Both the position numbers and the translations under genes were made by a program. 64,000 bases of DNA, taken from positions 546,096 through 610,095 of the forward strand of contig JBAZJB010000001.1 in NCBI GenBank assembly GCA_041651575.1, read 5' to 3'. This DNA comes from Candidatus Nanoarchaeia archaeon. Lineage in GTDB: Archaea; Nanobdellota; Nanobdellia; SCGC-AAA011-G17; JAFCDX01. A model generated the notes under the pieces. That model was not told the DNA's origin, did no database searches, and saw only the letters and a list, made by a program, of their open reading frames with translations. The stretch's first letter is position 1. Every line of letters starts with the position of its first letter. This document shows, piece after piece, positions 22,813-46,566 of this stretch.

Positions 22813-23031
22813 ATGGCAACAACAATTCAAATAACAGAAAATCTTCAAGGAGAACTAAACAAAAAAAAGATTTTTGATAGAGAAACTTATGAAGAAGTTA
22901 TATGGGATTTAATAGAAGATACTAAAGAACTTTCTGAAGAGACAAAAAAAGAACTTGCTCAATCTCGTGAAGAAATTAAAAAAGGAAAAATTCATACTCT
23001 TGAACAAGTTAAAAAAGAGTTAAGATTATAA
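22813..23031 (+). CDS. Putative antitoxin of a type II toxin-antitoxin pair
   Basis: 72-aa acidic protein; its stop overlaps the start of the downstream RelE/ParE toxin (TAATG). Confidence 0.5.
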   Translation: MATTIQITENLQGELNKKKIFDRETYEEVIWDLIEDTKELSEETKKELAQSREEIKKGKIHTLEQVKKELRL

Positions 23032-23279
23032 TGTATGAAATAATATTTTCAGATACTGCTAAAAAACAGCTTGAAAAATTAGAAAAGAGCGTTCAAGAAA
23101 GAATAATTAAAGCACTTGAAAGAATTAAAATACGCCCAGAATCATATATCACCAAACTTATAGGAGATCCTGGATATAAATTTCGTGTTGGAGATTATCG
23201 TTTAATTTTAGATGTGAATAGAGATAAACTACAAATTCTTGTAATTAAAGTCGGTCATCGTAAAAATGTTTATAATTAA
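23031..23279 (+). CDS. RelE/ParE-family toxin
   Basis: C-terminal motif FRVGDYRLILDVNRDKLQILVIKVGHRKNVY, the hallmark of RelE/ParE. Confidence 0.8.
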   Translation: MYEIIFSDTAKKQLEKLEKSVQERIIKALERIKIRPESYITKLIGDPGYKFRVGDYRLILDVNRDKLQILVIKVGHRKNVYN

Positions 23280-24007
23280 TTAAGAATTGCTTTAAATTTC
23301 ATTTCTATTAAAATAATTAAAGAAATTATAATTATTAATACTAAAAAAGAGATTAAGATTGGAACTATTAAAAAAGCCAGAGTATAAATTCCTAAGAAGA
23401 AACAAGCAGTTAGATAAGATATTATTAAAAGAATTAAAACAAAATATAATAAAATTAATTTCCAATTTTTTGCTGATTTTAATATATTTTTAATAGAATT
23501 TATATTTAGATAAGATAATAATAAGAAATATGGAAGTATTAATAATATAATTAAATATATTATTGAAAAAATTAATGAAAATTCTGATAATTGGTTAAAT
23601 AACTTTGATAGTATAAAAATTATTATTAAATAAAAAGGAATTGTTATTATTGAAAATCTTAATAGATATTTTTTAAAATTCTTTTCTTTTGAAAGAGTAT
23701 AAAAATTATAGGATTGGAATATACACCAAATTATAAAAAAAGATAAAGGTATGAATATATACCAAAAATATACCATATTTGATATCATTGAATTTAAATC
23801 TGTTAATTGGGTATTTGCTGCTGCTATATTAGAAGTTATATTTTCTTGTAAAGATTGTTGTATATTTTGTATTTGGTAAGAAACTAAAGTTAATTTTTGA
23901 ATATAAGAGGACATTTGTTTTTTTATAAATAAAGAAATTGAGATTAAAAATACTGTAAAAAGTATGTTAATTGTGAATAGTTTTTTGAATTTAGTTTTTT
24001 TAATCAT
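23276..24007 (-). CDS. Polytopic membrane protein, last gene of the giant-protein operon
   Basis: 243 aa with 6-7 TM helices; 4-nt overlap with the upstream giant gene. Confidence 0.5.
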   Translation of the reverse strand: MIKKTKFKKLFTINILFTVFLISISLFIKKQMSSYIQKLTLVSYQIQNIQQSLQENITSNIAAANTQLTDLNSMISNMVYFWYIFIPLSFFIIWCIFQSYNFYTLSKEKNFKKYLLRFSIITIPFYLIIIFILSKLFNQLSEFSLIFSIIYLIILLILPYFLLLSYLNINSIKNILKSAKNWKLILLYFVLILLIISYLTACFFLGIYTLAFLIVPILISFLVLIIIISLIILIEMKFKAILN

Positions 24008-27000
24008 TTTATTAAGGCATTATATGCTCCGATAATTAACCACTTATCTATATCTTTTTTTTCTGTTACTCCAGTTAATGTATTATCTTGTTTTGCAAAA
24101 TTTTTTCTAGTAGTATCATCTCCTTCTTTTTCTATTTGAATAATTCTACAATGTTCATCAGCATTACACATTTTTACTATTTGAGTTATACCATTTTTAA
24201 AATCTTTTGTAAAGGTTATTCTTTTACTATTACCTAAAAATATCCACCCTTGATTTGTATTATAAGTATAACTTTCTAAAACAGTATTTTCAAATGTTCT
24301 AATCAAAATGTTTATTCCTTTCAAAGCAATAGTATTACATCTATTGTCCCTCCAAGTACATTTTTCTTTACATTTAGAGATGCATTCAGATTTTGATAAA
24401 CTATAACAAACATCACATTGATCTAGTGGAGTAATAGGCTTGCATTTATTATTTTCCAAAATACAAGTTTTATCACATTGCATACAAAGAAGTTTAGTTT
24501 CTTCTAAATTATTTAAATCATTAAAACTTTCACACTTTCCACCACAATCACTACAAAAGAAATTATAACTTCCGAAGACACTATAAGTAGCATAGCAATC
24601 TGATCCCTTTTTTTCATTGTTACATTCTTCTTTATCACAAGTGTTTAAAGCACCATTTCCACAATCTGAACATTTAGAAATTAATCCCGGAAGTGTAGTT
24701 GATGCTAAATACTTTACTTCTATGGTGGCGGTATTATCTGTTAATCCTTTTAAATTTAATTGCACTCTTTTATTATATTCCTTACAATATACCTCCACAG
24801 GGGTATCTTTATATAATATTTCTCTTACACTTATACCGGTGAAACAAGTTTTTGGTAAAATTATGCTAGCCGTAGTTGGAATAGGTTCTCCTACTCTTTT
24901 TATTTCTTCAACTATTTCTTGCTCACTATCAGATATTACTGAAAGTTTTCTTTCTTTTGCGGTTGTTGTTCCTATACTCTCTAATTTTATCCAAAATTCT
25001 GGAAAATCTTTTAATATTCCTTTTTGCATTTCTCCTTCTTTAATTGTTATTTTTTGTGTATTTGATAAAACAGTTTGTGTAGCAGGATTATTACATGTAT
25101 TTACCTTCCAAATACAAGGGAATAGACAAGCAGCAGGATCAAAAACTTTTGTACAATCGCTCTCTGTTGTTTCACTTCCTCCTCCACCCTTATTATTTAC
25201 ATTTATGGTTTCTTCCACACATTTCTTCTCTACACATCTAAACCCTTTAAGACATTCGTTAACATTATCTCCGCATTCAACTCTTTCAATAGATGTTTTA
25301 ATTGTATCTCCAAGCAACATATAAATTTCTCCAACTCTTATTTGAGACCATATTTTTATAGAAGTATCTAAAGAATATTGTGATAATTCTACATAATTTA
25401 TTACTGCTTCATTATTTGAAGGAATATCTTTTTCTGTTTTTTCTTTATTAAAACCTTTAAAATCATTTCCAGATAATAAACCAATCAAAATTTCTTTTTT
25501 GCTTTCTAAATTTTTATTTTCTTTAGCAAGACTTAATTTAGATTCTAATTCTGCAAAATAAGCTTTACTTTTTTGTACATCAAATAAACCCGCTAAAATT
25601 TCATTATATTTTGCTGTTCCTTCATCCATTTGTTTCTTATTCAAAGCAAAGGCATTCATTACATCCTCTCTTTTTTCTTTATTTTTTATATCAATTGTCT
25701 TTGTATTTATCCAACAAATACCTAAATCATTTCCAGATTTATCTTTTCCACAAGTACTTCCTGCAATTGGACTCCAATCATTTGCATTGGTTCCAGAACC
25801 AGGATTTATAGTAGAACAAGTTCTTACAATTCCAGTACTTATTGCACCATATTCTTCTGGTAAAACTACACTTCCCAAACTCGTACTTAAGGTAGGAGAA
25901 TCAGGAACACATTGTTTTTGAGAAGTTATTTTTCTAGCTGCTTCGTTTTGTACAATCTCATCATTTAATGCATTCAAAGCATAATTGGTAGTTACTTTTC
26001 CAAATCCACATTCTGTACTTCCACTTATAGAAACACAAATTTTAGTCATTCCAGGTTTATCAAATACTTTATTATTTTTATCAGCATATTTTCCATATTC
26101 AATTATTTCATAAGCAGATCCTCTCTGTTCTGAAGTTACTGGTATAGAATATCCTTGATCATCCACCAAATAAACAGCATATTTTACTCCTTTTGAATTT
26201 ACTCCTGTTCTTAATGCTTCAGGAATACTTCCTGCATATATGTGGAAATAAACATTATACAAAGACATTTCTTGTAAATTTCCTAGTTTATTTGTTCCAG
26301 TTGAAGGAATATTTCCTGCTTCTGTTATATAAGGAGATTCATCAAATTCAGCATAAAATTGTGGAGGATTTTCTGGCTCAGAAATTTGATCTAATAAACT
26401 TCCTACTTCGGCAAACTTTCCAAATATTGCAGCCTTACAAATTTTTGTACCAAATTCTTGTGTGCTCATTGCATTATAAGCACTAAATGCACTTGAGGCA
26501 TATTCTTTTGTAAAGTAATTAACCATATTAGAGGTTGTTTCCATATTTGTAGTAAAGTCTAAATATTCAGAACCTCCAGAATTTATTCCAAACATTTTTT
26601 CTGAAATAAAGTTTATCAATCCTCCCTGCATATTAAAAGTATTAATTATTTCTTTCCATAATAATTCACATATTCCTAAGGATCTTATTTTATCACAAAT
26701 TCCGATATTTTCATGATTTATTTTTGAAGTATGTAGACATTGAACAAATCCTTCTAACAAAGACCTTATACTTTTTAATCCAGCAGAAATTCCAGGCAAG
26801 CAAATAGGTAAAGGGGTTTCTGGATAATTTGGCATTCCTAAAACCAATGAACCAATAATTCCTGTTTCTACAACACTTCCAGAAACTTCATAATTGCCTC
26901 CTAAATTAAATCTTGAATTAGGACACATTACAGGATCACAAACTGCAAACAAAGTCTTACAATCATCTGGATCCATAAAATCTTGACAATTTGCATTTGT

Positions 27001-30000
27001 ACTTGATTGTGCTAATTTATATCCTTGCATACTACACAAGAAAGGTCTATTTGTATTTGGATTTAAAGAACCCATTAAAGAACCTCCTTCTGTACAAGTA
27101 CTTGATTTATATTTTGCTACCAAGTTTTGACACAATCCCTTTGTATCTTCTCTGGTATTGATTACATCTTTTCCTGCAATTAATCTATCTTCTCCAGAAC
27201 AAAGTAATCCATCTGCTCCAACATTCCAATATTCACAATCATTAGGAGTTCCATATTCATACCAACTTAATATTTTTACAAAATTACCATTAGAACCTGT
27301 TGGAAGACAGAAAGGTTTTCCTTTTTCTATAAATTCTGCTTTTGCATTTTGAGCATATTTATCATTTAATCCAGAATCAGCCGATTTTAATGATTGAAGT
27401 GCAATTATATATTTATCATCCTTAGTAGTATCTTTATAAACATTATATCCTTGGAATTTCCATTCAGAGTCTAAACATGTTTTTTTAGTTGATTCAGAAG
27501 AACATATTATATTTTTAACATTTTCCGGTGCATCACTTACCTTAAGTAATTTATAAGTTCCAGAATCTGTTATTGTTACTTTTCCAGTAGTGGAATCTAT
27601 ATTTGTAGAATAAGTAGTTGCGGTAATTCCAGTCTCAATATTAGTTTCAGATACTAAAGGTTCTATTTTTACATTTTTAGCATCTATCCCGAATTCGTTA
27701 TTAAATTGATTAATATATCTCTTTTCATCCTCAGGACTGATTTTAGCATTTGTATCTAAAACTCCCAATGCCAGGTTGTATAAATATTGGAATCTGCTAG
27801 TTGCTTCTGTTTTTTTATTTGCAGATAATTCATTAAAATTTGTTGTTCCTATATTAGATTTCTCATATGCTGCATCATATGCATTTAATTTATTTTTAAT
27901 AGAATTTTTTGCATCATCACATTTATCTTCTCTATATTCATCTATTCCTAAATTTTCATTTTTCATATCCACACAATAAAATTGATAATCTAAAAATTGA
28001 GCTTTATCAACAGGATTTGCTATTAAAGCATTTTTATTTAATTCTGCTGCATTTTCAATTATTTTTTTATTTTCATCATTATCATAAAGGTCAATTCCAC
28101 TTAAACAAGAATTATCTTTTGAAGTAAGGCAATCATTTCTTTTACCTACCAAACCTTCTGCAACATTTAATGTAGATTCAATTTCATCAGCTTTATCAGT
28201 AAGACATTGACTCATTGTTTTTTTCTCAGGACTGCTTAAAATTTCTTTCTTACATTCATCATTATACATCGGCATTACTTCTTTTCTTGCTAAGGCTCTA
28301 TCTGCTGCACCTGCAGTAAAAGCATTTTTAACAATTAATAAACCATAAGTAACCATACATACATTCTTCCAAACTTTTATTATATCATCAAGTTGTTTTA
28401 TAAATTTACTAAGTTGGTCTATTTGTTTTTGAGTTGCATTTATCATTTTATCAATCTGTTCTGGAGTCCATTCTATCATTCTTTTATCTACACCTAAATG
28501 AACTTGGAAATTTGAAGTAGAATATGCTTCTCCTGTTCCAGGATAAACTGTAACATATGCTCTTTTCTTTGAATTTATTTTTTTAAGAGAAATATCCACT
28601 ATAGAATTTTGTACTGGTTTTCCATCGGTCCCTATATCTTTATAAATTGTAGTTGCTTTTCCAGGATTAATATATACTGTTTGTTCAGAAACCTCTGAGG
28701 TTACACCTAAGGTGGATTTTGTCTGACGTTTTCTGGATAAATAAACTGTATTACTATCTATTTTATCTATATACCAAATTAATTTCTCTCCTACAGAATT
28801 AAATTGATAACTTGTTCCATCAAGTATAGATATAGGTTCTCCTTCTCTATAAATACCTGATACTCCTCCAATAGTTAATTCTGCAGTAGATTTATCTGCT
28901 TCAGCCACAGGAATTATATCTACTAAACTGACAAATGCTCCTTCATCTTCTAAATAAACCATCTCTGATTTTGAATTTGTATAAAGATCATTTTTTAATT
29001 GGGCTATTTTTGTTGTAATTTCATTTGTCTGTTCTGCATGGCCATAATAATAAATTGCTATTTTTTTTGCATTAAATGAATCTGTATTTACAGGAAGTAT
29101 ATCTGACAATCTTTCATAATTTTGTCCAATTAAATCATAAGCATAATAAGTATATTTTTGATTATCTCCTGCATCTTTTATTGAGTCTTTTAATTTTTGT
29201 ATAGAAGTACAATATAATTTCATTGCATTATCATTATCATTTTTATCGTTATTACTTTTAACTAAATCATTTAAAGTTGGAGTTTCTTGTAATATATTTT
29301 TATCACAAAGATTATTTTCTATTCCTTCAACTTGAACTTTATCAGATAAAATAAGAGTTTCTGTCTCTCCTGTAGCTTTATCATTATATGTTCTATATAA
29401 AATTTTTATATCTCCATAAGAATTTCTTATTATTACTTGTTGAGTTGTTAATTTTTGAGCACTTCCTGCAGATACACATTTTCCACTATAACACGTTAAT
29501 CCACTTGGACAATTAGCATCAGTCTTACAACTTATTTCAGTAGTATCATTAGAAATTGAATCTATTATCCAATTTGAACCAGAATAAATTTTCATTCCTC
29601 TTGCAATTGTTTTTGTAGTTTGTTCTCCATTAACTGTAACTTTTAGCTGAGCAGTATCTTCTGGTTCACTTACTTCATTTAATTTTAAAGTAAACCTATC
29701 ATTAAAAAATGAAGAAGAACCAGGTAAAGACATTGTTCTTGAATCTCCTTTGGTTAAAACAACAATTCCTCTTCTTTCTAATTCACTTGCGTCTCCAATT
29801 CCCAATAATCCAAAACCAGAACCATAAACTTGTATATAGGCCCTATTCCCTTCAATTTTAGTAACTCTCAAATAACCTTTTCCATTCCAAAAAGAATTTG
29901 AAATAGAATCTGTTTTTTTCCAATCCTCTTCAACAGAAGATTCTTTTAAAATTAAATCCTGTGCAGATACATCTCCAAAACCTCTATTAAAATCAAAATA

Positions 30001-30510
30001 TAATTTTAAAGTTAAATTTAAATCTATTTTTTCTGGAACTTTTGTCTCATCTTTTACTTGTTTTAATAATAAATAAATATATCCCATATTATCTAAACTT
30101 CTTGCATAAGTTTGTGGCATTATAAATTGTGGTTGAGAAGCTAAATATTCTGTAGAACCAGAAACAGAAACGTACCCTGATTTTATTATTGGTTGTCCTA
30201 TAAATGGTTCGGATTCAGGAGAATTTTCTTGCATAAATAAAGAACCCAATGTACTTCCTTCAAGATAAACAACAACAGGAACATTTCTTGATTCTATAAG
30301 TGAAGAAGCAATTACTGGAGGTTGATAGTTTACTACATTAACAATTATAGCTTCTCCTAAATCTTGATTATCTAAATTATTTTCAATTGCAGAAGTTGGG
30401 AAAGTTGGATTTATAGTCATATCTTCTACAGAATAAACAGAAGCAGGAACAATCAAAATAGTTATCACTATCATAAACATTGCTATTATTATTTTATTTA
30501 TTTCTTTCAT
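24004..30510 (-). CDS. Giant secreted Cys-rich surface protein (2168 aa)
   Basis: N-terminal signal/TM segment; many Cys clusters (EGF-like CxxxxC spacing, especially in the C-terminal 400 aa); sequon-rich. No known catalytic motif found. Confidence 0.6.
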   Translation of the reverse strand: MKEINKIIIAMFMIVITILIVPASVYSVEDMTINPTFPTSAIENNLDNQDLGEAIIVNVVNYQPPVIASSLIESRNVPVVVYLEGSTLGSLFMQENSPESEPFIGQPIIKSGYVSVSGSTEYLASQPQFIMPQTYARSLDNMGYIYLLLKQVKDETKVPEKIDLNLTLKLYFDFNRGFGDVSAQDLILKESSVEEDWKKTDSISNSFWNGKGYLRVTKIEGNRAYIQVYGSGFGLLGIGDASELERRGIVVLTKGDSRTMSLPGSSSFFNDRFTLKLNEVSEPEDTAQLKVTVNGEQTTKTIARGMKIYSGSNWIIDSISNDTTEISCKTDANCPSGLTCYSGKCVSAGSAQKLTTQQVIIRNSYGDIKILYRTYNDKATGETETLILSDKVQVEGIENNLCDKNILQETPTLNDLVKSNNDKNDNDNAMKLYCTSIQKLKDSIKDAGDNQKYTYYAYDLIGQNYERLSDILPVNTDSFNAKKIAIYYYGHAEQTNEITTKIAQLKNDLYTNSKSEMVYLEDEGAFVSLVDIIPVAEADKSTAELTIGGVSGIYREGEPISILDGTSYQFNSVGEKLIWYIDKIDSNTVYLSRKRQTKSTLGVTSEVSEQTVYINPGKATTIYKDIGTDGKPVQNSIVDISLKKINSKKRAYVTVYPGTGEAYSTSNFQVHLGVDKRMIEWTPEQIDKMINATQKQIDQLSKFIKQLDDIIKVWKNVCMVTYGLLIVKNAFTAGAADRALARKEVMPMYNDECKKEILSSPEKKTMSQCLTDKADEIESTLNVAEGLVGKRNDCLTSKDNSCLSGIDLYDNDENKKIIENAAELNKNALIANPVDKAQFLDYQFYCVDMKNENLGIDEYREDKCDDAKNSIKNKLNAYDAAYEKSNIGTTNFNELSANKKTEATSRFQYLYNLALGVLDTNAKISPEDEKRYINQFNNEFGIDAKNVKIEPLVSETNIETGITATTYSTNIDSTTGKVTITDSGTYKLLKVSDAPENVKNIICSSESTKKTCLDSEWKFQGYNVYKDTTKDDKYIIALQSLKSADSGLNDKYAQNAKAEFIEKGKPFCLPTGSNGNFVKILSWYEYGTPNDCEYWNVGADGLLCSGEDRLIAGKDVINTREDTKGLCQNLVAKYKSSTCTEGGSLMGSLNPNTNRPFLCSMQGYKLAQSSTNANCQDFMDPDDCKTLFAVCDPVMCPNSRFNLGGNYEVSGSVVETGIIGSLVLGMPNYPETPLPICLPGISAGLKSIRSLLEGFVQCLHTSKINHENIGICDKIRSLGICELLWKEIINTFNMQGGLINFISEKMFGINSGGSEYLDFTTNMETTSNMVNYFTKEYASSAFSAYNAMSTQEFGTKICKAAIFGKFAEVGSLLDQISEPENPPQFYAEFDESPYITEAGNIPSTGTNKLGNLQEMSLYNVYFHIYAGSIPEALRTGVNSKGVKYAVYLVDDQGYSIPVTSEQRGSAYEIIEYGKYADKNNKVFDKPGMTKICVSISGSTECGFGKVTTNYALNALNDEIVQNEAARKITSQKQCVPDSPTLSTSLGSVVLPEEYGAISTGIVRTCSTINPGSGTNANDWSPIAGSTCGKDKSGNDLGICWINTKTIDIKNKEKREDVMNAFALNKKQMDEGTAKYNEILAGLFDVQKSKAYFAELESKLSLAKENKNLESKKEILIGLLSGNDFKGFNKEKTEKDIPSNNEAVINYVELSQYSLDTSIKIWSQIRVGEIYMLLGDTIKTSIERVECGDNVNECLKGFRCVEKKCVEETINVNNKGGGGSETTESDCTKVFDPAACLFPCIWKVNTCNNPATQTVLSNTQKITIKEGEMQKGILKDFPEFWIKLESIGTTTAKERKLSVISDSEQEIVEEIKRVGEPIPTTASIILPKTCFTGISVREILYKDTPVEVYCKEYNKRVQLNLKGLTDNTATIEVKYLASTTLPGLISKCSDCGNGALNTCDKEECNNEKKGSDCYATYSVFGSYNFFCSDCGGKCESFNDLNNLEETKLLCMQCDKTCILENNKCKPITPLDQCDVCYSLSKSECISKCKEKCTWRDNRCNTIALKGINILIRTFENTVLESYTYNTNQGWIFLGNSKRITFTKDFKNGITQIVKMCNADEHCRIIQIEKEGDDTTRKNFAKQDNTLTGVTEKKDIDKWLIIGAYNALIK

Positions 30511-30511
30511 T

Positions 30512-32536
30512 TTATTCTGGATATCTAAACATAGGTAAACCTGCGTTTTCCTGTATTGAATTATAAATGATATTCATATTTTCCTGGGTTGAAGGTATTT
30601 GATCAACAATAGTATAAAAGTTCATTACATTTTTCTCTGCAATTTGTTCTCTTTCCAAATCAAATTCAAATTCTGCTCCACCCTTTATTGCTTGCTCTAC
30701 AATTATATCTTCAATTTTTACAGAATAACATTTTTCTTCTTCTCCAAACAAGTTCCAAATTGCTGGCTTTGATACTTTTACACATTTATTTATTTCTCCC
30801 CCTTGTAGTTTTATTGGCCAAGTACTACTTCCCATAATATAAGATTTAACTTCATATCTTCCTGGAATTAAATCAATTTGTGCAGCAGGTTCTTTTATTG
30901 AATAAGCAAAAGAAGCTGTAAAATCATTATCCATATTTTTCAATTCAAAAATAACAGTTTCAGATTCATAAGGATCTCTTACTTGCCCAGTACTTTTTTC
31001 TATTAATTTAACTGTAGGAGTTATTTTATAGATAGGTTCTAAGATTAATGAAATACTTTTTTCTTCGTTTGTAGATACTATTTGTTTTGCTTTGTAATAA
31101 CCTTCTTTTTCTCCAATTATTGCTCCATTAATACAAGAAGGGAATAATCCAGATAAGTAAGCTCCTTCATCTGTCATTTTTATATCACATTGTGTAGTAA
31201 AGCATTTGAATTTTATATTTGTTTCTGGAAGAGGAATCATATTTCCATAATTATCTGAAGCAAAAGTATAAACATCTATTTTTGTTGAAGGATTTTTACA
31301 TATTCTCGATTCAAATTCTGGTTGATCATAAGTTCCATAAATATTTTTCTTTGGTTGATTATTATCAATTATAACTTGCGAAGCAAATTGGAAAGTATAA
31401 CCTTCTCCATCCAAAGCAGCTGTATCTGTTAAAATAACTAAAATAGGATATTTTAAATCATAAATAAAATGATAATTATAAATGCACATTAAATAAGCAA
31501 TTGGTCCTGCATATTCGCTTAATTTCTCGGTAAGAGAAGTTCCCTGCATCAAATCTCCGTCACTTGGATAAACATCTACAATTGTAGGCCAAGTATTTGA
31601 ATACATAAAATTTATATCCAAATTTGCAGCGCTTGTTTTTGGATCCAACATAAAATAAGAAGCGTCTTGGTTTACTGAAGAAAACTTCGAACCTTTAACA
31701 AGATAAGCAGGAGTATTAATTGATAAAGCATCTTTTATATTATTTGTAACTTCTTGCTTTGACCAGAATTTAGGTTTACAATCAAAATCGGTTCCAGAAA
31801 AAGGAATATTTTCATAAGCAACTAACATATCAATAGTTTTTTCTTCAAAGAAATTTAATTCTTGTTGTTTCATAATACCGGAAGAAACCTTATACATTTT
31901 TCCTAAAGGAACGTCTAATTTTGCTTGATGCTCTTTCAAATTAAAATTAAAATCTTTTAAAGTAAATGAAACAGGCATTTCTAAATTAATTAAAACAGAA
32001 TTATCTAAAATAGAAACATCATATTTTCTTTCAGTAGTTACTATGAAAGAATATCCTTGATTAGTAAGTCCTTCCAATCCACTTATACATTCTGCCATAT
32101 TATTAGCAACATATTCTCCAATCTCTTTTTCCATAGATTCAATAGTTGGAATTTGTTCTTGTTGTATTCCATTTGAAGTTTCATAAAACCAATAAGCTGT
32201 TTTCAATCCAGGAAAAGATTCTAATTTATTTGAAAAAGGAGTTACAGGTGTAACTGGAAGATTATCCACTGGAATTTGTATATAGCCTCCTTGAATACCC
32301 ATTGTAACTATTGCTTTTTTTGCAAGTTCATAAACACAAGAATCAATATACTCTTTTACAGGAACAGCTTGATCTGGCACAGTTCCGGCCTTTAAAATAT
32401 TAGTGTCTGTTCTACTTTGAATAAAATATTGTCTTACAAAAAAGGCAGAAATAATTATCAATAATATAATAAAACCCAAGATTATATAAATCGTTACCTG
32501 GCCCCTTTTTTCCATATAAATACTATTAAAAGTCAA
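30512..32536 (-). CDS. Large extracellular protein with pilin-like class III signal peptide (674 aa)
   Basis: N-terminus MEKRGQ/VTIYIILGFIILLIIISAFF fits the archaeal prepilin (FlaK/PibD) motif. The true start may be the internal Met at 32515. Ends 1 nt before the giant gene. Confidence 0.55.
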   Translation of the reverse strand: MTFNSIYMEKRGQVTIYIILGFIILLIIISAFFVRQYFIQSRTDTNILKAGTVPDQAVPVKEYIDSCVYELAKKAIVTMGIQGGYIQIPVDNLPVTPVTPFSNKLESFPGLKTAYWFYETSNGIQQEQIPTIESMEKEIGEYVANNMAECISGLEGLTNQGYSFIVTTERKYDVSILDNSVLINLEMPVSFTLKDFNFNLKEHQAKLDVPLGKMYKVSSGIMKQQELNFFEEKTIDMLVAYENIPFSGTDFDCKPKFWSKQEVTNNIKDALSINTPAYLVKGSKFSSVNQDASYFMLDPKTSAANLDINFMYSNTWPTIVDVYPSDGDLMQGTSLTEKLSEYAGPIAYLMCIYNYHFIYDLKYPILVILTDTAALDGEGYTFQFASQVIIDNNQPKKNIYGTYDQPEFESRICKNPSTKIDVYTFASDNYGNMIPLPETNIKFKCFTTQCDIKMTDEGAYLSGLFPSCINGAIIGEKEGYYKAKQIVSTNEEKSISLILEPIYKITPTVKLIEKSTGQVRDPYESETVIFELKNMDNDFTASFAYSIKEPAAQIDLIPGRYEVKSYIMGSSTWPIKLQGGEINKCVKVSKPAIWNLFGEEEKCYSVKIEDIIVEQAIKGGAEFEFDLEREQIAEKNVMNFYTIVDQIPSTQENMNIIYNSIQENAGLPMFRYPE

Positions 32537-32587
32537 TATATAAAGTTTTTGAATACGTTTAAATATCTAAAATTTACAGTATAAAAC

Positions 32588-38214: not shown

Positions 38215-38937
38215 TTAACTTATTTGATTTGAACTTTTTAATGCAAATACAAATGCAATGTTTTCATTAGTACATGGATTTTTAATATTTTGCACATTAC
38301 ACTTTATTAAACTATCGCTTTGTATACATTGTAAGTTACTACTCTGAGAACATACTTCAAAAGATTTGGAAGATAAACAGGTTTTAAGTTTATATGCCTC
38401 ATCTATAATCTCTTGTATTTTGGTTGTATCTGCATTAATTTCTGTATTAAAGTTTATGTTTAATTTGTAAGTTATATCCATTTTTTCTTTCATTTCTTGT
38501 AAAGTTAATGAATCTGCAACGGCTTTAATTTTAATTTTATTTCCATAATCTAAAGTAAAAGTATATTTATAATCTGTTTTAACTCTTTCTTTGAAATTAT
38601 TTTTAAATTCTGATTCGAAATATTCGCTAAAAATAGGGTTGCAATTAGGAGTAAAATCCCAAACCATATGATTTCCTACAAGACAATTTGGATTATTTAA
38701 CAAACCTTTTTCTAAACTTATTTGTAAAGCATTACAAGCAGCAAGTTTTGCATTTTCTTGTATTGAAAAAACCATATTTTCTTTTTCTGTATAAAAATTA
38801 ATTAATTCTGTAGAAAACATACCTACGTTTTTTTGTTCATCTTTTATAATATCACTATAAAAAATCCCCAAAAATATTACTGTAAAAAGAAAAGCAAATA
38901 TTGCTAATAGGGGTAAAAATATTCCTTTCTTATTCAT
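38215..38937 (-). CDS. Pilin-like protein (class III signal peptide)
   Basis: N-terminus MNKKG/IFLPLLAIFAFLFTVIFLGIF; last gene of the pilus-like operon. Confidence 0.5.
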   Translation of the reverse strand: MNKKGIFLPLLAIFAFLFTVIFLGIFYSDIIKDEQKNVGMFSTELINFYTEKENMVFSIQENAKLAACNALQISLEKGLLNNPNCLVGNHMVWDFTPNCNPIFSEYFESEFKNNFKERVKTDYKYTFTLDYGNKIKIKAVADSLTLQEMKEKMDITYKLNINFNTEINADTTKIQEIIDEAYKLKTCLSSKSFEVCSQSSNLQCIQSDSLIKCNVQNIKNPCTNENIAFVFALKSSNQIS

Positions 38938-39434
38938 TCTATCACCAACTTTATTTTTATTTCTTTATCAAAATCGGGTAAATTGAATTCAGAAGAAGTT
39001 GTTTTATCTGTTTCTATTATTCCGCCTAATTCTGCAGGTGTTCCAAAATCTTCGCTCATTGCTACTTTTCCCTGAGAAATTATTTGATTATCTATGTACA
39101 AGTTATATTGATCAAATAGTTTATTGAATATCTTCTGGTTTATACCTTCTAAATTTGTTCTATATTTTTCTTTGTTTTTAACATACATTCTTATTAAATC
39201 GGAAACTAAAACTTCTTGTCCTTCAACATTTACCGGTGTTCTTAAATAATTTAATAAAATACTGTTAACATCTATTTTTTCTTTAGCAAGAATTTCTTGT
39301 TTAACAGAATCAATTCCAAAAGAGAATATAAAAAATATAATTAGTGTAACAAATATTAAAATTATAGCTCCAAGATTATAAAAAATCATACCTATTCCTT
39401 TTTTCCCAATTTTATCAAGTTTAAACATTTTCAA
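38934..39434 (-). CDS. Pilin-like protein (class III signal peptide)
   Basis: ...GKKG/IGMIFYNLGAIILIFVTLIIFFIF; overlapping gene boundaries. Confidence 0.5.
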   Translation of the reverse strand: MKMFKLDKIGKKGIGMIFYNLGAIILIFVTLIIFFIFSFGIDSVKQEILAKEKIDVNSILLNYLRTPVNVEGQEVLVSDLIRMYVKNKEKYRTNLEGINQKIFNKLFDQYNLYIDNQIISQGKVAMSEDFGTPAELGGIIETDKTTSSEFNLPDFDKEIKIKLVIE

Positions 39435-39897
39435 ATATCACGTCATAATTTAAAATAGCCCCTTGTTTTTTATTATCTTTTACTAAAAGAACATAATCCT
39501 TTTTTTCATAAAAAGTATATTTCTCGTTTTTTATTTTTATATTTTTTAAATTTTTATTTAAATCATATTCTTTTTTATTATAATAAGTATCAATTTTTTC
39601 TCCGTTAAGAGTTTCTATAGTTATATTTAGTTGCAGATCTTCATTATTGAAACAAGATTCTATTAAAGGAAATTTATTTGCATCTATTATTCCAAAATTA
39701 TTTCTTTCATCTTCATAAGATAAACAAGAATAAGCTTTATACAAAACAAGTTGGGGTTCATATTCAGAAACATCTATATTTCTTGTTAAAAAAGTCCAAG
39801 TTATTGAAGCAAATATTACTAAAATTACTGCTAAAACCAATATATTAAATGCCCATACAGGAATATCTATATCTAAGGAATCTCCTTTTTTATTCAT
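39421..39897 (-). CDS. Pilin-like protein (class III signal peptide)
   Basis: MNKKG/DSLDIDIPVWAFNILVLAVILVIF. Confidence 0.5.
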   Translation of the reverse strand: MNKKGDSLDIDIPVWAFNILVLAVILVIFASITWTFLTRNIDVSEYEPQLVLYKAYSCLSYEDERNNFGIIDANKFPLIESCFNNEDLQLNITIETLNGEKIDTYYNKKEYDLNKNLKNIKIKNEKYTFYEKKDYVLLVKDNKKQGAILNYDVIFENV

Positions 39898-40283
39898 GAT
39901 ATTGAAACCTCGTTATTTTCTTTTTTAATGGTTATAATAGGAGTTTTAGCTTCTTTTTCAACATTGGAATTAAAAAAACATTTATATGAAGAAGGAGTTC
40001 TTGAATAAACTTTTTCACTTGATTCATAAATTTGAAGCAAACATGGTTTTTTTATGTTCAAAACATAATCTGAACTATCAAAATTAATTTTTATAGAAAT
40101 ATCATTTGGACTTGCTGAAACTGCATCCAAAGCAAAAGCAGATTCTATAGCTAAATATTTTTGTTTAAATAATTGATCTTCTGCTATTTTCACTGATAAT
40201 CCCACAAATGCTCCAAGAATTAATATTGCAAGAAACATGTACGACAGCCACAAGTACTGCATCTCATACCCTCTTTTATTCAT
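39894..40283 (-). CDS. Pilin-like protein (class III signal peptide); start taken at internal Met MNKRG
   Basis: MNKRG/YEMQYLWLSYMFLAILILGAFVGL. The listed ORF extends to 40349 and would overlap the upstream gene. Confidence 0.5.
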   Translation of the reverse strand: MNKRGYEMQYLWLSYMFLAILILGAFVGLSVKIAEDQLFKQKYLAIESAFALDAVSASPNDISIKINFDSSDYVLNIKKPCLLQIYESSEKVYSRTPSSYKCFFNSNVEKEAKTPIITIKKENNEVSIS

Positions 40284-40326
40284 AAAAAGAAAAAGATTTG
40301 TTAATTTATAATGGTTTTGATTACAC

Positions 40327-41982
40327 CTAACCAAAATATTGATTTGCATATTTTGTTCTTATTCCGATATCTCTCTCGGGCTTAGCTGGATTTTCTATGT
40401 TTATCACAAACCAAGCCACCCATTCATTTCTAGTTTTTTGTTTTACTATTTCAGTGCCATAAAAAGTTTTTAAATAAAATACCATAAATTCAATTTGTTT
40501 ATTATAATCTAAAAGAGCATTTAATTTATCTTGACTATTTGCATTTTCTAGAGTATAATATTTTAAGAATTGTCTTCCCAAGGCGGTTTTTCCACAAATA
40601 TTATATTGCCATAATCCATAAGAACAATAGTTAGTTGAACCTATTGGACTAGGATCTCCCATATTATTATAAGAAAGAGCAGATTCTCCAACAGCATTTG
40701 CAACCATAGCTTCTGCTAAATTAATATTATTAAATCTAGCATTTATATCATCCCTTAATTGGTTTGCAGAAACATATAATAATTTTGGTTTTTTCACATT
40801 TATGGCCCCGCTACTTTGAGTTTGTGATGAACCTATTTGTGATTGTTCAATTGTAGAAGGAACATAAGTTGTTGAAGAAGCTTGTTGATTTTGTATAGCT
40901 GTAAGTGTTGGAGAATTTTCACAATTAGTACAACTAGGAGAAATTTCATAACCGGAATGAGGCAAATAATTTAATGGATCTCTTTCATAATTAGGTTTAC
41001 CAATATCTGCAGAAAAATCTTGAGATAAATAAACTTTAAAATCTAAATGAGGTCCTTCTGAAAATCCAGTATTTCCTGACAATCCAATAATATCTCCTTT
41101 CGTAACTTGTTGTCCTTCTGTAACTTTAATTTCGGATAAATGATCATATCTTGTGTATAAATTTTCATTGTGTTTAATTATAATATATCTACCATAGCCT
41201 CTGCAAAGTTCTTTATAATCAATATCCTCTTTACCACATATTTCTATTACTGTTCCATCTTCAACAGTTTTAATTTCTGTACCTATAGGAGTTGTAAAAT
41301 CTACACCATCATGCCAATCATTAGTTCTTTGACCATAAGCAGAAAAAATAATTGGATTAGCTAAAGGAAATATACTGAATATTGAAGAGGTAGAAAGAGT
41401 CTCTTCAACAGGTTTTTCTTTATATATAATTAAAACTCCATTTTCTTTTTTGAAATAAATTGTTTTAGAATCTTTGTTATTTTCTGCAGAAATGTAATTA
41501 TCTCCAAAACCAACAAAATCTATTTTTTGTATATTTTTTAAAATATCTACTAATTCTTTTTTTCCACAATAATAATTATCTGTACAATAATATCCCTCTC
41601 CTTTTTTCTCAACTTCACAAACACAAAGTTTAGATTTACCTAAAATTTCATTACTCATTTCAGTAGAAGTTATCTGTAAAGAAAGGTCTGCTTTAGAAGG
41701 ATAAAAACCAGCAAGAATGCACTCTTTATTTTCAAAATATACTATTGTCTCTTTTATTTTATTTTCTTCAAGAATATTTATATCATTTAAAAGAATATTT
41801 AAAGCACTTGTTGTTTGATCATCCATGCATGCTTGAAAAGGTATTGTTGTTTTGTATAAATTACAAGAAGTAGTAATAAAAAATAATAAGAGTATAAGTC
41901 CTAAAATTAATCCAACTGGAACCTCTTGAAAATTCAATCCTTTTTTCATTTTAATTTTTTGGTATAGTATCTGCTGTTCCAA
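40327..41982 (-). CDS. Pilin-like protein fused to M23-family peptidase and lytic-transglycosylase-like (SLT) domains
   Basis: N-terminus MKKG/LNFQEVPVGLILGLILLLFF (likely start at 41949). M23 core: WHDGVDF (HxxxD)...GNTGFSEGPHLDF. C-terminus GESALSYN...SYGLWQ resembles the SLT catalytic motif E-S...G-L-M-Q. Confidence 0.6.
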   Translation of the reverse strand: MEQQILYQKIKMKKGLNFQEVPVGLILGLILLLFFITTSCNLYKTTIPFQACMDDQTTSALNILLNDINILEENKIKETIVYFENKECILAGFYPSKADLSLQITSTEMSNEILGKSKLCVCEVEKKGEGYYCTDNYYCGKKELVDILKNIQKIDFVGFGDNYISAENNKDSKTIYFKKENGVLIIYKEKPVEETLSTSSIFSIFPLANPIIFSAYGQRTNDWHDGVDFTTPIGTEIKTVEDGTVIEICGKEDIDYKELCRGYGRYIIIKHNENLYTRYDHLSEIKVTEGQQVTKGDIIGLSGNTGFSEGPHLDFKVYLSQDFSADIGKPNYERDPLNYLPHSGYEISPSCTNCENSPTLTAIQNQQASSTTYVPSTIEQSQIGSSQTQSSGAINVKKPKLLYVSANQLRDDINARFNNINLAEAMVANAVGESALSYNNMGDPSPIGSTNYCSYGLWQYNICGKTALGRQFLKYYTLENANSQDKLNALLDYNKQIEFMVFYLKTFYGTEIVKQKTRNEWVAWFVINIENPAKPERDIGIRTKYANQYFG

Positions 41983-42127
41983 TAATGTCTTTTACAATAT
42001 TTCCTAGTTTTAAAATTAATTTAGAAATATTTCCTCCAAAAAATATTATAACTATTGCTAAAACAATTAAAAAAAGAATTACAACAACTATAGTATTAAT
42101 TGGTAATTCCTGTGATTTTTTATTCAT
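41951..42127 (-). CDS. Small pilin-like protein (58 aa, below ORF-track cutoff)
   Basis: MNKKSQELPINTIVVVILFLIVLAIVIIFFGG... Its stop lies 2 nt before the MKKG start of the downstream gene. Confidence 0.4.
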   Translation of the reverse strand: MNKKSQELPINTIVVVILFLIVLAIVIIFFGGNISKLILKLGNIVKDIIGTADTIPKN

Positions 42128-42145
42128 TTTAAAAATAAAAAGGAA

Positions 42146-42505
42146 TTAACAAGCGCCTTCTGCTTCTATTACAGGACAACTCATTCCTAATTTCTTGCAA
42201 GTCAATCCTTTTTCATCAGATCCAATGTTTCCATTACCATTTAAGTCTACATTGAATTTTTGGTTACAGAAGTTATCTCTATAAGCAGTTATTGGATTGT
42301 TTTCGTACTGCATACAATAATTATTACATCTGTTTGTTGCTTCTGGAACATCTGTTAGTTGACTACCAAATAAAGCCTTTATTTTAGTAGTTAAACTTGC
42401 CATCCCACCTGTGAAAAATATTGCAACTATAACTAAAACTATAATTACTATGATAGTTATAATTATAACATCCATAGAAATTCCTTGTCCTCTCTTATTT
42501 TTCAT
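42146..42505 (-). CDS. Pilin-like protein (class III signal peptide), Cys-rich C-terminal domain
   Basis: MKNKRGQ/GISMDVIIITIIVIIVLVIVAIFF; 8 Cys in the globular part. Confidence 0.6.
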   Translation of the reverse strand: MKNKRGQGISMDVIIITIIVIIVLVIVAIFFTGGMASLTTKIKALFGSQLTDVPEATNRCNNYCMQYENNPITAYRDNFCNQKFNVDLNGNGNIGSDEKGLTCKKLGMSCPVIEAEGAC

Positions 42506-42571
42506 TTAATCACCTAAATAAAGACAAAATATAAATATTTAAATGTTTTGATTACACAAAATCAATAAAAA

Positions 42572-43237
42572 TTAGGTACAATAAGGTAATCTACTTGTTG
42601 TAATATAGTTACTTAAATCCTCATCTGCGATAAATTCCCCTGATTGAGATCTACTTACAACAAAACAAATCTGATTATCTTTTTTATAAAAGATTATATT
42701 ATTATAAAAAAAGTAATATTTATCAAATAATCCAGAATCAGTATTTACATTTTCTCTATCTTCTAAGGCTCTTGTAACTTCGTAAGATAAAATAGCTGCA
42801 TTTCCTTTTAAATCTTTTATAGTGCCTTTTTTATCTATATCATAAGATTCTAGATAACAATTCATCGTTTTTCCAGTAAAAAGATTTTTTCCATTTACAA
42901 CAGAACTTTCTAATTGTTCCCATTGACTTCCTTTTCTTTTTTCTAGAGAAAGTATTCCTTTAGTTACAACAATTCTATAATTTATAGAAAAACTCGGGCC
43001 TACAATTTTACAAACACAATCACTATTTTTAGAATCAAAACAAGTTTTATAATTATTTTTTAAAACTGAAAAATCACTTATAACTTGGGAATCTGTTTTT
43101 GAATCTCCCCCAAGAATTTTATCATAAGCCGTTGTTAATTTGTTAATTAAATTAATAGGACCAAGTAAGCTAACACCTACGATTAAAAGTAATAAAAATC
43201 CCGCCATTATTGTTTTTAGAGTAAAACTCGTTGCCAT
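42572..43237 (-). CDS. Pilus-associated secreted protein (N-terminal hydrophobic helix)
   Basis: MATSFTLKTIMAGFLLLLIVGVSLLG; ATG start at 43237 (the ORF track extends to 43246 via a non-ATG codon). Confidence 0.45.
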   Translation of the reverse strand: MATSFTLKTIMAGFLLLLIVGVSLLGPINLINKLTTAYDKILGGDSKTDSQVISDFSVLKNNYKTCFDSKNSDCVCKIVGPSFSINYRIVVTKGILSLEKRKGSQWEQLESSVVNGKNLFTGKTMNCYLESYDIDKKGTIKDLKGNAAILSYEVTRALEDRENVNTDSGLFDKYYFFYNNIIFYKKDNQICFVVSRSQSGEFIADEDLSNYITTSRLPYCT

Positions 43238-43238
43238 T

Positions 43239-43391
43239 TTATCCAAACCCTAATTTTGTAAATATCATTTCAATTATATTATATATTTTTTCTTTTCCCA
43301 TCCAAACCAAACCCAATAAAATAAAAAAAATTATTAAGGCTAAAACTAATTTTACTAATTCAGATACTTCAATTTCTCCTTTTTTGTTCAT
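43239..43391 (-). CDS. Small pilin-like protein (50 aa, below ORF-track cutoff)
   Basis: MNKKG/EIEVSELVKLVLALIIFFILLGLVW. ATGA overlap with the upstream gene stop; 1-nt gap to the downstream start. Confidence 0.45.
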   Translation of the reverse strand: MNKKGEIEVSELVKLVLALIIFFILLGLVWMGKEKIYNIIEMIFTKLGFG

Positions 43392-44212: not shown

Positions 44213-44331
44213 TAATTTCCCCCCAAAAAAAGAGTAGATATATCTGTTTTATACATCATCAATATTATTATTCCTGCTATAACTATTAAAAACACTAATA
44301 AAAATATTAAAAATAATAAAGTATCATTCAT
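44212..44331 (-). CDS. Tiny single-TM peptide (39 aa), doubtful
   Basis: MNDTLLFLIFLLVFLIVIAGIIILMMYK...; TAATG overlap with the downstream pilin gene. Confidence 0.25.
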   Translation of the reverse strand: MNDTLLFLIFLLVFLIVIAGIIILMMYKTDISTLFLGGN

Positions 44332-44365
44332 AATTATTCATAAGTTTATTAATATATAAACTTTG

Positions 44366-46426: not shown

Positions 46427-46566
46427 TAATTCCGCTCTAAATTCTTGGTATTCATGAGAAAATTTTATAGGAGTATCAACATCTTCTGTTTCTATTTTTC
46501 CTTTTAATAATTCTTCATATCTTTCAATTATCTTTTCTGTTTCTTTATCCGCTATACTCCCACCTC

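What the first reader, a model, noticed from the sequence alone, without database searches (positions are those of the whole stretch)
23276..32536. Three-gene operon built around a 2168-aa Cys-rich secreted giant protein and a pilin-signal-bearing 674-aa protein
The three genes are translationally coupled: boundaries at 30510/30512 and a 4-nt overlap at 24004-24007. The first protein begins MEKRGQ/VTIYIILGFIILLII, a class III prepilin-like signal. The 2168-aa protein has an N-terminal signal/anchor, dozens of Cys arranged in EGF-like clusters and many N-glycosylation sequons, with no recognisable enzyme motif. The last protein is a 6-7 TM membrane protein. Giant surface proteins of this kind are typical of small-genome episymbiotic archaea and are prime candidates for host-recognition adhesins. 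The pairing with a pilin-like partner suggests a second surface fibre or an adhesin presented on a pilin stalk. The operon is flanked by a tRNA-Leu gene and a RelE/ParE module, so it may be laterally acquired.
Basis: partly seen in the sequence, partly recalled or inferred. Interest (0 to 1): 0.6.

Follow-up and report, generated by a model that had tools for sequence, protein, structure and literature searches.

The report
Conserved giant surface-protein operon of Woesearchaeota
This is a real three-gene operon of a tiny symbiotic (DPANN) archaeon, pairing a pilin-like protein with a fast-evolving 2168-residue secreted giant; relatives of the giant often carry enzymes that cut bacterial cell walls, so it is probably the tool these archaea use to grip or breach other cells, and the giant family was already noted in the literature.

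Summary
The three ORFs are real and tightly coupled on the minus strand. A is 30512-32515 (667 aa), B is 24004-30510 (2168 aa) and C is 23276-24007 (243 aa). The organism is an AT-rich DPANN archaeon of the Nanoarchaeia/Woesearchaeota type.

B belongs to a very large family of 2-3.8 kaa secreted giants, found in at least 579 species genomes. About half carry peptidoglycan hydrolase domains. [quoted passage not shown] The window's copy has no hydrolase domain. Its conserved disulfide-rich core matches no known fold.

A sits directly upstream on the same strand in 58 of 59 loci. It has a conserved KRGQ class-III (prepilin) signal and beta-sandwich, adhesin-like domains. C follows in about 44% of loci.

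The operon sits among ribosomal-protein genes in conserved synteny, so it is not an island. The ParE toxin-antitoxin module is the insertion.

Against a sister genome, B is 48% identical while its neighbours are 90-100% identical.

The best reading is a pilin-anchored apparatus for attaching to, or breaching, host or prey cells. This function is inferred, not shown.

The parts
32537..32544 (-). TATA-like box (TTTATATA) about 26 nt upstream of A's ATG. It lies in the 72-bp divergent spacer shared with the U32 peptidase gene. It implies a leaderless or very short-leader operon mRNA.
   Evidence: Read directly from the sequence. Promoter function is inferred, not tested.
30512..32515 (-). Gene A: a 667-aa pilin-like (class-III signal) secreted protein with 10 conserved Cys. 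It has an N-terminal long helix followed by alpha/beta and beta-sandwich domains.
   Evidence: ORF. 76 full-length homologs. Invariant Cys and the consensus MxKRGQVTxFIILGI. AF2 model with pLDDT 85.7. Foldseek hits to pilus-tip and ancillary adhesin beta-sandwiches at low TM.
32435..32515 (-). A residues 1-27: MEKRGQ followed by the hydrophobic helix VTIYIILGFIILLIIISAFFV. This is a putative prepilin-peptidase site and pilin-type N-terminal helix.
   Evidence: 57 of 64 homologs keep the motif. The helix spans residues 5-42 in the model. Cleavage is not tested.
24004..30510 (-). Gene B: a 2168-aa Sec-secreted giant with 66 Cys.
   Evidence: Family found.
29581..30510 (-). B residues 1-310: signal peptide (about 1-27) plus conserved N-terminal module.
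   Evidence: BLAST and MAFFT conservation. Sec-type N-termini in 112 of 119 full-length representatives.
28594..29580 (-). B residues 311-639: variable slot 1. AR20 carries SLT here and P0006 carries Phage_lysozyme2. In the window it holds only a 4-Cys mini-knot (328-345) and no enzyme.
   Evidence: dN/dS of about 0.7-1.1 against L001.
28111..28593 (-). B residues 640-800: conserved mid module with long helices and invariant C718, C753 and C769.
25711..27363 (-). B residues 1050-1600: the family-defining disulfide-rich core with 15 invariant or near-invariant Cys and a Gly-rich hydrophobic helical segment at 1205-1260.
   Evidence: A profile of this core finds 1130 cluster representatives. No fold match in PDB or BFVD.
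26911..26940 (-). Signature motif C-D-P-V-M-C-P-N-S-R (B residues 1191-1200).
   Evidence: Invariant columns. Used as the search pattern CDPV[IML]CPxSR.
24004..25710 (-). B residues 1601-2168: variable C-terminal region. Here it is Cys-rich (CxxC-type clusters at 1947-2058) with no Pfam domain. Homologs carry SLT, Amidase_3, Glucosaminidase, DUF1615 or ankyrin repeats here.
23276..24007 (-). Gene C: a 243-aa polytopic membrane protein (about 6-7 TM). It has an N-terminal TM, a polar Q-rich helix of about 50 aa, and then a TM bundle.
   Evidence: 91% identical in L001. A C-like gene lies directly after B in 25 of 57 loci, and jackhmmer recognises 19 of them.
38215..48873 (-). Separate type-IV-filament-like cluster, 5.7 kb away. 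It has about 7 small proteins with KKG/KRGQ pilin-type N-termini, a 551-aa pilin-type protein with M23 DD-endopeptidase plus phage-lysozyme domains (40327-41982), and a FlaI/TadA-like ATPase (46567-48873). The link to the operon is inferred: it is the likely assembly machinery for A and a peptidoglycan hydrolase supplied in trans.
   Evidence: The functional link is inferred only.

Best explanation
The locus is the A-B(-C) operon that Woese-/Pace-/Nanoarchaeia-type DPANN archaea inherit vertically. It probably encodes a surface apparatus for contacting other cells.

B leaves the cell through Sec. It is a modular giant built on three conserved scaffolds: an N module, a helical mid module and a disulfide-locked core of unknown fold. 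Between and after these scaffolds lie two fast-evolving slots. In many relatives the slots hold murein hydrolases (SLT, amidase, glucosaminidase, phage lysozyme). In this genome they hold only Cys-rich modules.

A is made with a class-III (prepilin) signal. It would be processed like a pilin and held in the membrane, or at the base or tip of a type-IV-like filament, by its N-terminal helix. Its beta-sandwich domains would then retain or present B. C, a polytopic membrane protein, would serve as an accessory anchor or assembly factor.

Together the complex would bind the envelope of a host or prey cell, probably a bacterium, and help to open it. Here the wall-cutting activity would come in trans from the pilin-type M23/lysozyme protein of the neighbouring filament cluster.

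Shown: gene structure, homology, synteny, modularity, export signals and rapid divergence. Inferred: the A-B interaction, surface location, target and mechanism.
For: - Archaeal, DPANN context (names).
- B family: 26 close hits and 1130 cluster representatives, with the core always at about aa 1050-1700 of 2-3.8 kaa proteins. At least 579 GTDB species genomes carry it.
- Hydrolase domains occur in about 40-55% of sampled members, at the C-terminus or in slot 1.
- A lies directly upstream on the same strand in 58 of 59 loci, often with a 4-8 nt overlap.
- A has a conserved KRGQ-plus-helix N-terminus and 10 conserved Cys. Its adhesin-like beta-sandwiches are seen.
- B has Sec signal peptides across the family.
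- B's dN is 8-40 times that of flanking genes, with dN/dS of about 1 or more in the slots.
- Sequon avoidance is shared by the A family, the B family and the exported proteins of the filament cluster. Two other exported proteins in the window are sequon-rich.
- The neighbouring filament cluster encodes a pilin-type M23/lysozyme protein and a FlaI/TadA-like ATPase.
- The literature independently proposes a bacterial-wall-binding or degrading role for these giants (PMC8204110, PMC9723730, PMC12352652).
Against: - There is no experimental or expression data.
- The window's B has no hydrolase or lectin domain, so the family's common function cannot depend on one.
- The conserved core has no recognisable fold, and the B model is of only moderate confidence (pLDDT 71).
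- The A-B physical interaction is inferred from adjacency alone.
- A class-III signal does not prove filament incorporation. Archaeal bindosome substrate-binding proteins also carry one (general knowledge).
- No prepilin peptidase was identified in the window.
- Universal, syntenic placement among housekeeping genes also fits a self-directed envelope role.
- The hosts of these archaea are unknown.
Confidence: 0.5

Rival explanations
1. B (with A and C) is a structural or biogenesis component of the archaeon's own envelope. It could be an S-layer-associated scaffold or a cell-shape or division protein, and would not be a tool directed at other cells. Hydrolase domains in relatives would be secondary add-ons.
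For: - Near-universal presence and fixed position among ribosomal-protein and replication genes.
- About half of the family lacks any hydrolase.
- The conserved scaffolds are under purifying selection, with dN/dS of 0.14-0.21 in the core.
Against: - Archaea have no murein, so repeated acquisition of four or five different murein hydrolase types is hard to explain for a self-directed protein.
- B diverges 8-40 times faster than its neighbours.
- B avoids glycosylation sequons, whereas likelier envelope glycoproteins in the same window (8001-10478, 10612-12006) are strongly sequon-enriched.
Confidence: 0.2
2. B is a freely released, polymorphic antibacterial toxin or bacteriolysin. It would have a conserved delivery scaffold plus variable C-terminal 'warheads'. 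C would act as an export or immunity factor and A as a secretion helper. It would be used to lyse bacteria for nutrients rather than for stable attachment.
For: - The architecture, conserved N-terminal and core regions with variable enzymatic ends, resembles polymorphic toxins.
- A small membrane-protein gene directly follows B in 44% of loci.
- The literature proposes 'vampiristic' or antagonistic lifestyles for these archaea (PMC9723730, PMC12352652).
Against: - C stays 91% identical while B's C-terminus is almost unalignable between sister genomes. C therefore does not co-vary as a cognate immunity protein would.
- An archaeon needs no immunity to murein hydrolases.
- The window's B has no recognisable toxin domain.
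- The strict A-B coupling with a pilin-type partner suggests cell-bound presentation.
Confidence: 0.15
3. The operon is a laterally acquired island or an element derived from a mobile element or virus, inserted next to tRNA-Leu.
For: - tRNA-Leu and a ParE toxin-antitoxin pair lie next to C.
- The lysozyme and M23 domains elsewhere in the window are phage-like.
Against: - GC content and skew are unremarkable.
- The same A-B pair lies in the same housekeeping neighbourhood in relatives down to about 25-30% identity.
- Alignment with the sister genome shows that only the 507-bp ParE module is an indel.
- A, B and C have no PHROG, PADLOC or viral-fold hits.
Confidence: 0.03

Closest known systems
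[quoted passage not shown] 2021, PMC8204110; the AR20 protein of Castelle 2015; GH23 proteins of Vigneron 2022, PMC9723730)
   Same: - Same lineage, size class and Sec signal.
- Direct sequence homology through the N module, mid module and core to SLT-bearing members. These include P0005, P0025, the L008 giant and the AR20 giant (CP010426), which has SLT at aa 380-482.
- AR20 has the same A-B-C operon.
   Different: - The window's protein lacks the SLT or any other hydrolase domain.
- The papers define the family by that domain. In the passages I read, they do not describe the conserved core, the pilin-like partner, the synteny, the hypervariability or the sequon depletion.
Bacterial type IV pilus / T2SS tip complexes: large minor pilins (GspK, CofB/TcpB) with a non-pilin adhesin or effector (PilY1/PilC, CofJ/TcpF); archaeal TFF loci that encode large adhesin-like proteins (bioRxiv 10.64898/2026.04.22.720090)
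   Same: - A large protein with a pilin-type N-terminus encoded next to a much larger Sec-secreted protein.
- A type-IV-filament-like cluster with many small pilin-like proteins and a FlaI/TadA-like ATPase lies in the same window.
   Different: - No sequence or fold homology of A or B to GspK, CofB or PilY1 was detected.
- The A-B operon lies outside the filament cluster.
- Assembly into a filament is untested.
- The resemblance to the bacterial systems is recalled from general knowledge. It is an analogy, not a membership claim.
Gram-positive sortase-pilus tip/ancillary adhesins (PitA, SpaC, streptococcal ancillary pilin)
   Same: The C-terminal half of the A model consists of stacked beta-sandwich domains. 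These give the best Foldseek matches to these adhesins (E of 1e-5 to 1e-3).
   Different: TM-scores are only 0.1-0.2, so the matches are at domain level only. The anchoring chemistry is different (class-III signal rather than LPXTG). No sequence similarity was found.
Phage tape-measure and virion-associated lysins / polymorphic toxins with variable C-terminal enzymatic domains
   Same: Very long, helix-rich proteins with optional SLT, M23, lysozyme or amidase modules and variable ends.
   Different: No PHROG hit for B. No significant BFVD fold match. The gene is chromosomal, syntenic and vertically inherited.

Membership tests
Pace-/Woesearchaeota giant 'murein-like lytic transglycosylase' protein family (fam00969-type) | Sequence homology to SLT-bearing giants of these lineages | tested here: met
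   E = 0 to 1e-72 to giants of 1.9-2.5 kaa, eight of which carry PF01464. The three conserved modules are collinear. The AR20 giant is recovered by the core profile and carries SLT. Identity with 'fam00969' itself could not be checked because its member list was not available.
Pace-/Woesearchaeota giant 'murein-like lytic transglycosylase' protein family (fam00969-type) | Presence of a lytic transglycosylase (SLT/GH23) domain | tested here: not met
   No SLT or other hydrolase domain in the window's B at E <= 1 in Pfam or NCBIfam. About half of the homologs also lack one.
Pace-/Woesearchaeota giant 'murein-like lytic transglycosylase' protein family (fam00969-type) | Very large, extracellular (signal peptide), and restricted to Woese-/Pace-/Nanoarchaeota | tested here: met
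   2168 aa with an N-terminal hydrophobic signal. All named sources are Woese-/Nano-/Pacearchaeota.
Archaeal type IV pilin-like proteins (class-III signal peptide substrates) | N-terminal [KR]-G/A-x cleavage motif followed by a hydrophobic helix of about 20 residues | tested here: met
   MEKRGQ | VTIYIILGFIILLIIISAFFV. Conserved in 57 of 64 homologs. Helix at residues 5-42 in the AF2 model.
Archaeal type IV pilin-like proteins (class-III signal peptide substrates) | Processing by a prepilin peptidase (PibD/EppA/FlaK type) and assembly by a TFF ATPase and platform | not testable with these tools
   A FlaI/TadA-like ATPase and many pilin-like genes are in the window. No Peptidase_A24 hit was found among the window ORFs scanned. 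Cleavage and assembly need experiment.
Archaeal type IV pilin-like proteins (class-III signal peptide substrates) | Match to a curated pilin/archaellin family model | tested here: not met
   No Pfam or NCBIfam family at E <= 1 apart from noise. No PDB sequence relative.
   Pfam at E <= 1 gives only a sub-threshold CCL2-lectin hit (14.7 bits against a cut-off of 27).
Genomic island / mobile element | Variable presence, atypical composition, insertion at a tRNA with integrase or direct repeats | tested here: not met
   Conserved synteny. Ordinary GC content. Only the ParE module is an indel relative to L001.

The most novel reading that the evidence does not exclude
A-B(-C) is the lineage-defining machine that Woese-/Pacearchaeota use to contact other cells. 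A pilin-anchored giant would carry a previously unseen disulfide-locked helical core, with its Gly-rich hydrophobic helices. That core would engage or insert into the partner's membrane to form a conduit. Two hypervariable 'warhead/receptor' slots would be swapped in an arms race. The whole apparatus would be kept free of N-glycans for function. If so, B's variable slots would encode host specificity and could be used to predict the unknown hosts of these archaea.
Probability: 0.2. Interest if true: 0.8.

Novelty: new member of a known kind. Interest (0 to 1): 0.5.

Why it matters
Woese- and Pacearchaeota are among the most abundant uncultured archaea. Neither their hosts nor the way they attach to them are known.

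This analysis shows that the previously noted 'giant transglycosylase' proteins are one face of a near-universal, syntenic module. That module consists of a pilin-like protein, a giant and a membrane protein. It has a conserved core of unknown fold and two fast-evolving slots.

This gives concrete handles for experiment: antibodies or tags against A and B, recombinant slot domains for binding screens, and co-variation with candidate hosts. It also offers a marker (CDPVxCPxSR) for finding the system.

The family-wide avoidance of N-glycosylation sequons is a new and testable oddity. So is the presence of hydrolase-less members such as this one, with the hydrolase moved to a pilin-type protein.

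Tried and rejected
- Pfam, NCBIfam, PHROGs and PADLOC scans of A, B and C found nothing significant.
- phmmer and profile hmmsearch against PDB sequences for A, B, the B core and full-length giants found nothing.
- Foldseek of the B 620-1700 model against PDB and BFVD gave no match at E <= 1e-3. The weak long-helix hits to Tc toxins, ClyA and BAR domains were dismissed.
- Foldseek of the A model against PDB gave only generic beta-sandwich adhesin hits at TM 0.1-0.2.
- The island/HGT reading was rejected on synteny.
- The reading of C as a cognate immunity protein was rejected because C is conserved while B's ends diverge.
- I first concluded that C was lineage-restricted, based on 5 loci. I revised this after the 57-locus survey.
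Full report
**1. The observation**

The minus strand carries three consecutive ORFs:
- A: 30512-32536 as listed, starting at a TTG.
- B: 24004-30510, 2168 aa.
- C: 23276-24007, 243 aa.

A's TAA stop is followed by one base and then B's ATG. B's TGA stop overlaps C's ATG as ATGA. Homologs of A start at MEKRGQ, and the listed TTG lies inside a TTTATATA box about 26 nt upstream of the ATG at 32515. The real A is therefore 667 aa, probably translated from a leaderless or short-leader operon mRNA; this last point is an inference.

At 28% GC, a 2168-codon open frame has a chance probability of about 1e-81.

B has 66 Cys (3.0%) and one N-terminal hydrophobic segment. A has one N-terminal hydrophobic helix and 10 Cys. 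C has about 6-7 hydrophobic segments. None of the three matches a Pfam or NCBIfam family.

- The sequons are not 'many'. B has 3 NxS/T where shuffles give 25 (z = -4.6), and A has 0 where shuffles give 5.
- No EGF-type model matches.

**2. The organism and the neighbourhood**

Flanking genes encode TFIIB, S8e, an Sm-like protein, L37e, S3Ae, S15, a DHH/Cdc45-like protein and RPA. This is an archaeon. The databases name the identical B protein as coming from a 'Candidatus Nanoarchaeia archaeon' MAG, on a contig of 766 kb. GC content and skew across the operon are ordinary.

**3. B belongs to a huge family of giants**

The word-indexed search found 26 relatives of 1.5-2.5 kaa, all from Nano-/Woese-/Pacearchaeota. 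Ten of the 25 homologs carry murein hydrolase domains: SLT, Amidase_3, Glucosaminidase or Phage_lysozyme2. These lie at the C-terminus, or at aa 368-506 in P0006.

Local BLAST and MAFFT resolve three collinear conserved modules:
- aa 1-310;
- aa 640-800;
- aa 1050-1600.

These are separated by poorly conserved stretches and followed by a variable C-terminal region of about 500 aa. The core has 15 invariant or near-invariant Cys, the motif C-D-P-V-x-C-P-x-S-R (1191-1200) and a Gly-rich hydrophobic helical stretch.

An exhaustive profile search with the core found 1130 representatives of 50%-identity clusters (958 at E < 1e-30). In the listed hits the core lies at about residues 1050-1700 of 2-3.8 kaa proteins, apart from truncated entries.

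All of the 80 loci listed carry Woese- or Nanoarchaeota-type names, or are labelled only 'archaeon'. They include the complete genome AR20. The AR20 giant (2165 aa) has SLT at aa 380-482, that is, in the first variable slot.

In a sample of 19 further giants, the domains found were DUF1615 (5), SLT (4), Amidase_3 (2), Glucosaminidase (1) and ankyrin repeats (2).

This family includes the giant of AR20, the genome for which a murein-transglycosylase gene was reported. [quoted passage not shown] PMC12352652 notes that peptidoglycan hydrolases are prominent in Nanoarchaeota. The window's protein is a hydrolase-less member.

**4. The partners**

A has 76 full-length homologs of 620-740 aa. Their consensus N-terminus is MxKRGQVTxFIILGI, and the ten Cys are invariant or nearly so. 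57 of 64 keep [KR][GAS]Q plus a hydrophobic 20-mer.

The AF2 model is good (pLDDT 85.7). It shows a long N-terminal helix (5-42), an alpha/beta region and stacked beta-sandwiches. Foldseek gives only domain-level matches to pilus-tip and ancillary adhesins (PitA, SpaC, streptococcal ancillary pilin), teneurin and carboxypeptidase-regulatory-like domains, at TM 0.1-0.2.

In eight loci fetched by protein identity, A directly precedes B, often with a 4-8 nt overlap. In the GTDB loci with enough upstream sequence, 59 of 59 have A, and in 58 it is on the same strand upstream.

C is 91% identical in the sister genome. A multi-TM gene of 218-275 aa with the same layout starts within -19 to +116 nt of B's stop in 25 of 57 loci. 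jackhmmer recognises 19 of these, although compositional bias is high. In other loci the next gene encodes a secreted protein, often Cys-rich.

The conserved unit is therefore A-B, with C as a frequent third member. AR20 has all three.

**5. Not an island**

The pair lies beside S3Ae, S15, DHH, LSM, S8e and TFIIB in relatives down to about 25-30% identity. Alignment with the sister genome L001 is continuous through tRNA-Leu and resumes at C's 3' end. Only window 22775-23281, the antitoxin-ParE pair, is missing from L001. The toxin-antitoxin module is the insertion, not the operon.

**6. Hypervariability**

Between the window and L001, 17 flanking proteins are 83-100% identical, most of them at least 90%. 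In the ten flanking genes tested, dN is 0 to 0.05 and dS is 0.02 to 0.53. The operon genes compare as follows:

| Gene | Identity to L001 | dN | dS | dN/dS |
|---|---|---|---|---|
| B | 48-52% | 0.41 | 0.73 | 0.56 |
| A | 75% | 0.16 | 0.59 | 0.27 |
| C | 91% | 0.05 | 0.15 | 0.36 |

Within B, the core windows have dN/dS of 0.14-0.21. The slot and C-terminal windows reach 0.9-1.24.

The somewhat higher dS in B leaves open allele replacement by recombination as an alternative to in-situ positive selection. This is one pair of genomes analysed with Nei-Gojobori counts, so it is indicative only.

**7. Sequon avoidance**

Observed-over-expected NxS/T is 0.31 for 26 B homologs, 0.33 for 76 A homologs and 0.37 for 144 B representatives. 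The eight exported proteins of the filament cluster at 38215-44212 together have 1 sequon against about 19 expected.

Two other exported proteins in the window are 2.3-2.6 times enriched: 8001-10478 (a beta-helix protein, 55 against 24) and 10612-12006 (40 against 15). N-glycosylation therefore seems to be in use, and this apparatus is kept free of it. I have no tested explanation.

**8. Structure of B**

The model of residues 620-1700 has pLDDT 71 and pTM 0.46. It shows:
- long helices at about 683-940;
- beta domains at about 947-1160;
- a helical, disulfide-rich core at about 1162-1362;
- more beta structure at about 1384-1507;
- long helices at about 1611-1680.

Nothing in PDB or BFVD matches at E <= 1e-3. 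Profile searches of PDB sequences are also empty. The core is either a new fold or too poorly modelled to be recognised.

**9. The neighbouring filament cluster**

About 5.7 kb away lie seven or eight small proteins with KKG or KRGQ pilin-type N-termini. With them are a 551-aa protein with the same kind of N-terminus plus M23 DD-endopeptidase and phage-lysozyme domains, a 686-aa protein with no hit, and a FlaI/TadA-like ATPase.

This genome therefore does encode murein hydrolases, but on a pilin-type carrier rather than on the giant. [quoted passage not shown]

**10. Interpretation**

The best-supported reading (confidence about 0.5) is a cell-surface apparatus for contact with other cells, probably bacteria. 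In this reading:
- pilin-like A holds or presents Sec-secreted B;
- C is an accessory membrane component;
- the variable slots carry wall-cutting or binding modules that evolve quickly.

The specific picture of A sitting at a filament tip is less certain (about 0.25).

The rivals are a self-envelope role (0.2), a freely released polymorphic lysin with C as helper or immunity factor (0.15), and a mobile island (0.03). None of the functional steps has been shown. They rest on domain content in homologs, export signals, gene order, rates of evolution and analogy.

**11. Verdict**

The locus is real, and it is more interesting than a lone 'giant adhesin'. However, it is a member of a family already flagged in the DPANN literature. 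Four findings were not mentioned in the passages I read:
- the conserved core and signature motif;
- the obligatory pilin-like partner and frequent membrane partner;
- the fixed chromosomal position;
- the hypervariable slots and the sequon depletion.

I rate the novelty as a new member of a known kind, and the interest as 0.5.

Noticed in passing
window 38215-48873 (minus strand): Type-IV-filament-like cluster with seven or eight small proteins that have KKG/KRGQ pilin-type N-termini. It also has a 551-aa pilin-type protein with M23 DD-endopeptidase and phage tail-lysozyme domains (40327-41982), a 686-aa protein with no family hit, and a 768-aa FlaI/TadA-like ATPase. A murein hydrolase on a pilin-type carrier in an archaeon is itself worth a look.
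   Followed up: partly
window 8001-10478 and 10612-12006 (plus strand): Two exported proteins strongly enriched in N-glycosylation sequons (55 against 24 expected, and 40 against 15 expected). The first has right-handed beta-helix hits. They are likely S-layer or surface glycoproteins, in contrast with the sequon-free A, B and filament-cluster proteins.
   Followed up: partly
window 22775-23281: A 507-bp antitoxin-ParE module is present here but absent from the otherwise collinear sister genome (L001). It sits exactly between tRNA-Leu and the 3' end of gene C. ParE's stop overlaps C's stop by 4 bp, convergently.
   Followed up: yes
A-family proteins P0057, P0067, P0068, P0070, P0076, P0078, P0079, P0087; L046 353-2500: Some A homologs (about 700-740 aa) carry an N-terminal extension of about 45 aa (…FIKSKDFVNFSLIAKHFNIKNTTVSDLIKD…) ahead of the KRGQ motif. 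This could be mis-called starts or a fused small HTH-like gene. The AR20 ORF is likewise listed from an upstream TTG.
   Followed up: no
window 49877-51540 (minus strand): Three tandem paralogous small membrane proteins (174, 181 and 192 aa) with similar N-termini (…LLPFLLVF…). No convincing family was found.
   Followed up: no
window 56956-57423 and 58080-58514: Two small, very Cys-rich proteins (11 Cys in 155 aa with a signal or lipobox-like N-terminus; 11 Cys in 144 aa with CxxC pairs). Function unknown.
   Followed up: no
window 23276-24007 compared with L001 16472-17212: Gene C is 91% identical to its sister-genome ortholog, and the C-terminal part of about 180 aa is identical. Its dS is only 0.15, although the adjacent B is only 48% identical. 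This is a very sharp boundary in evolutionary rate at the B/C junction.
   Followed up: partly
L034, L041, L048, L064, L065, L067, L072-L078 (downstream of B): In loci that lack a C-like gene, B is followed on the same strand by a secreted protein of 140-1269 aa, often Cys-rich. This suggests an alternative third component.
   Followed up: no
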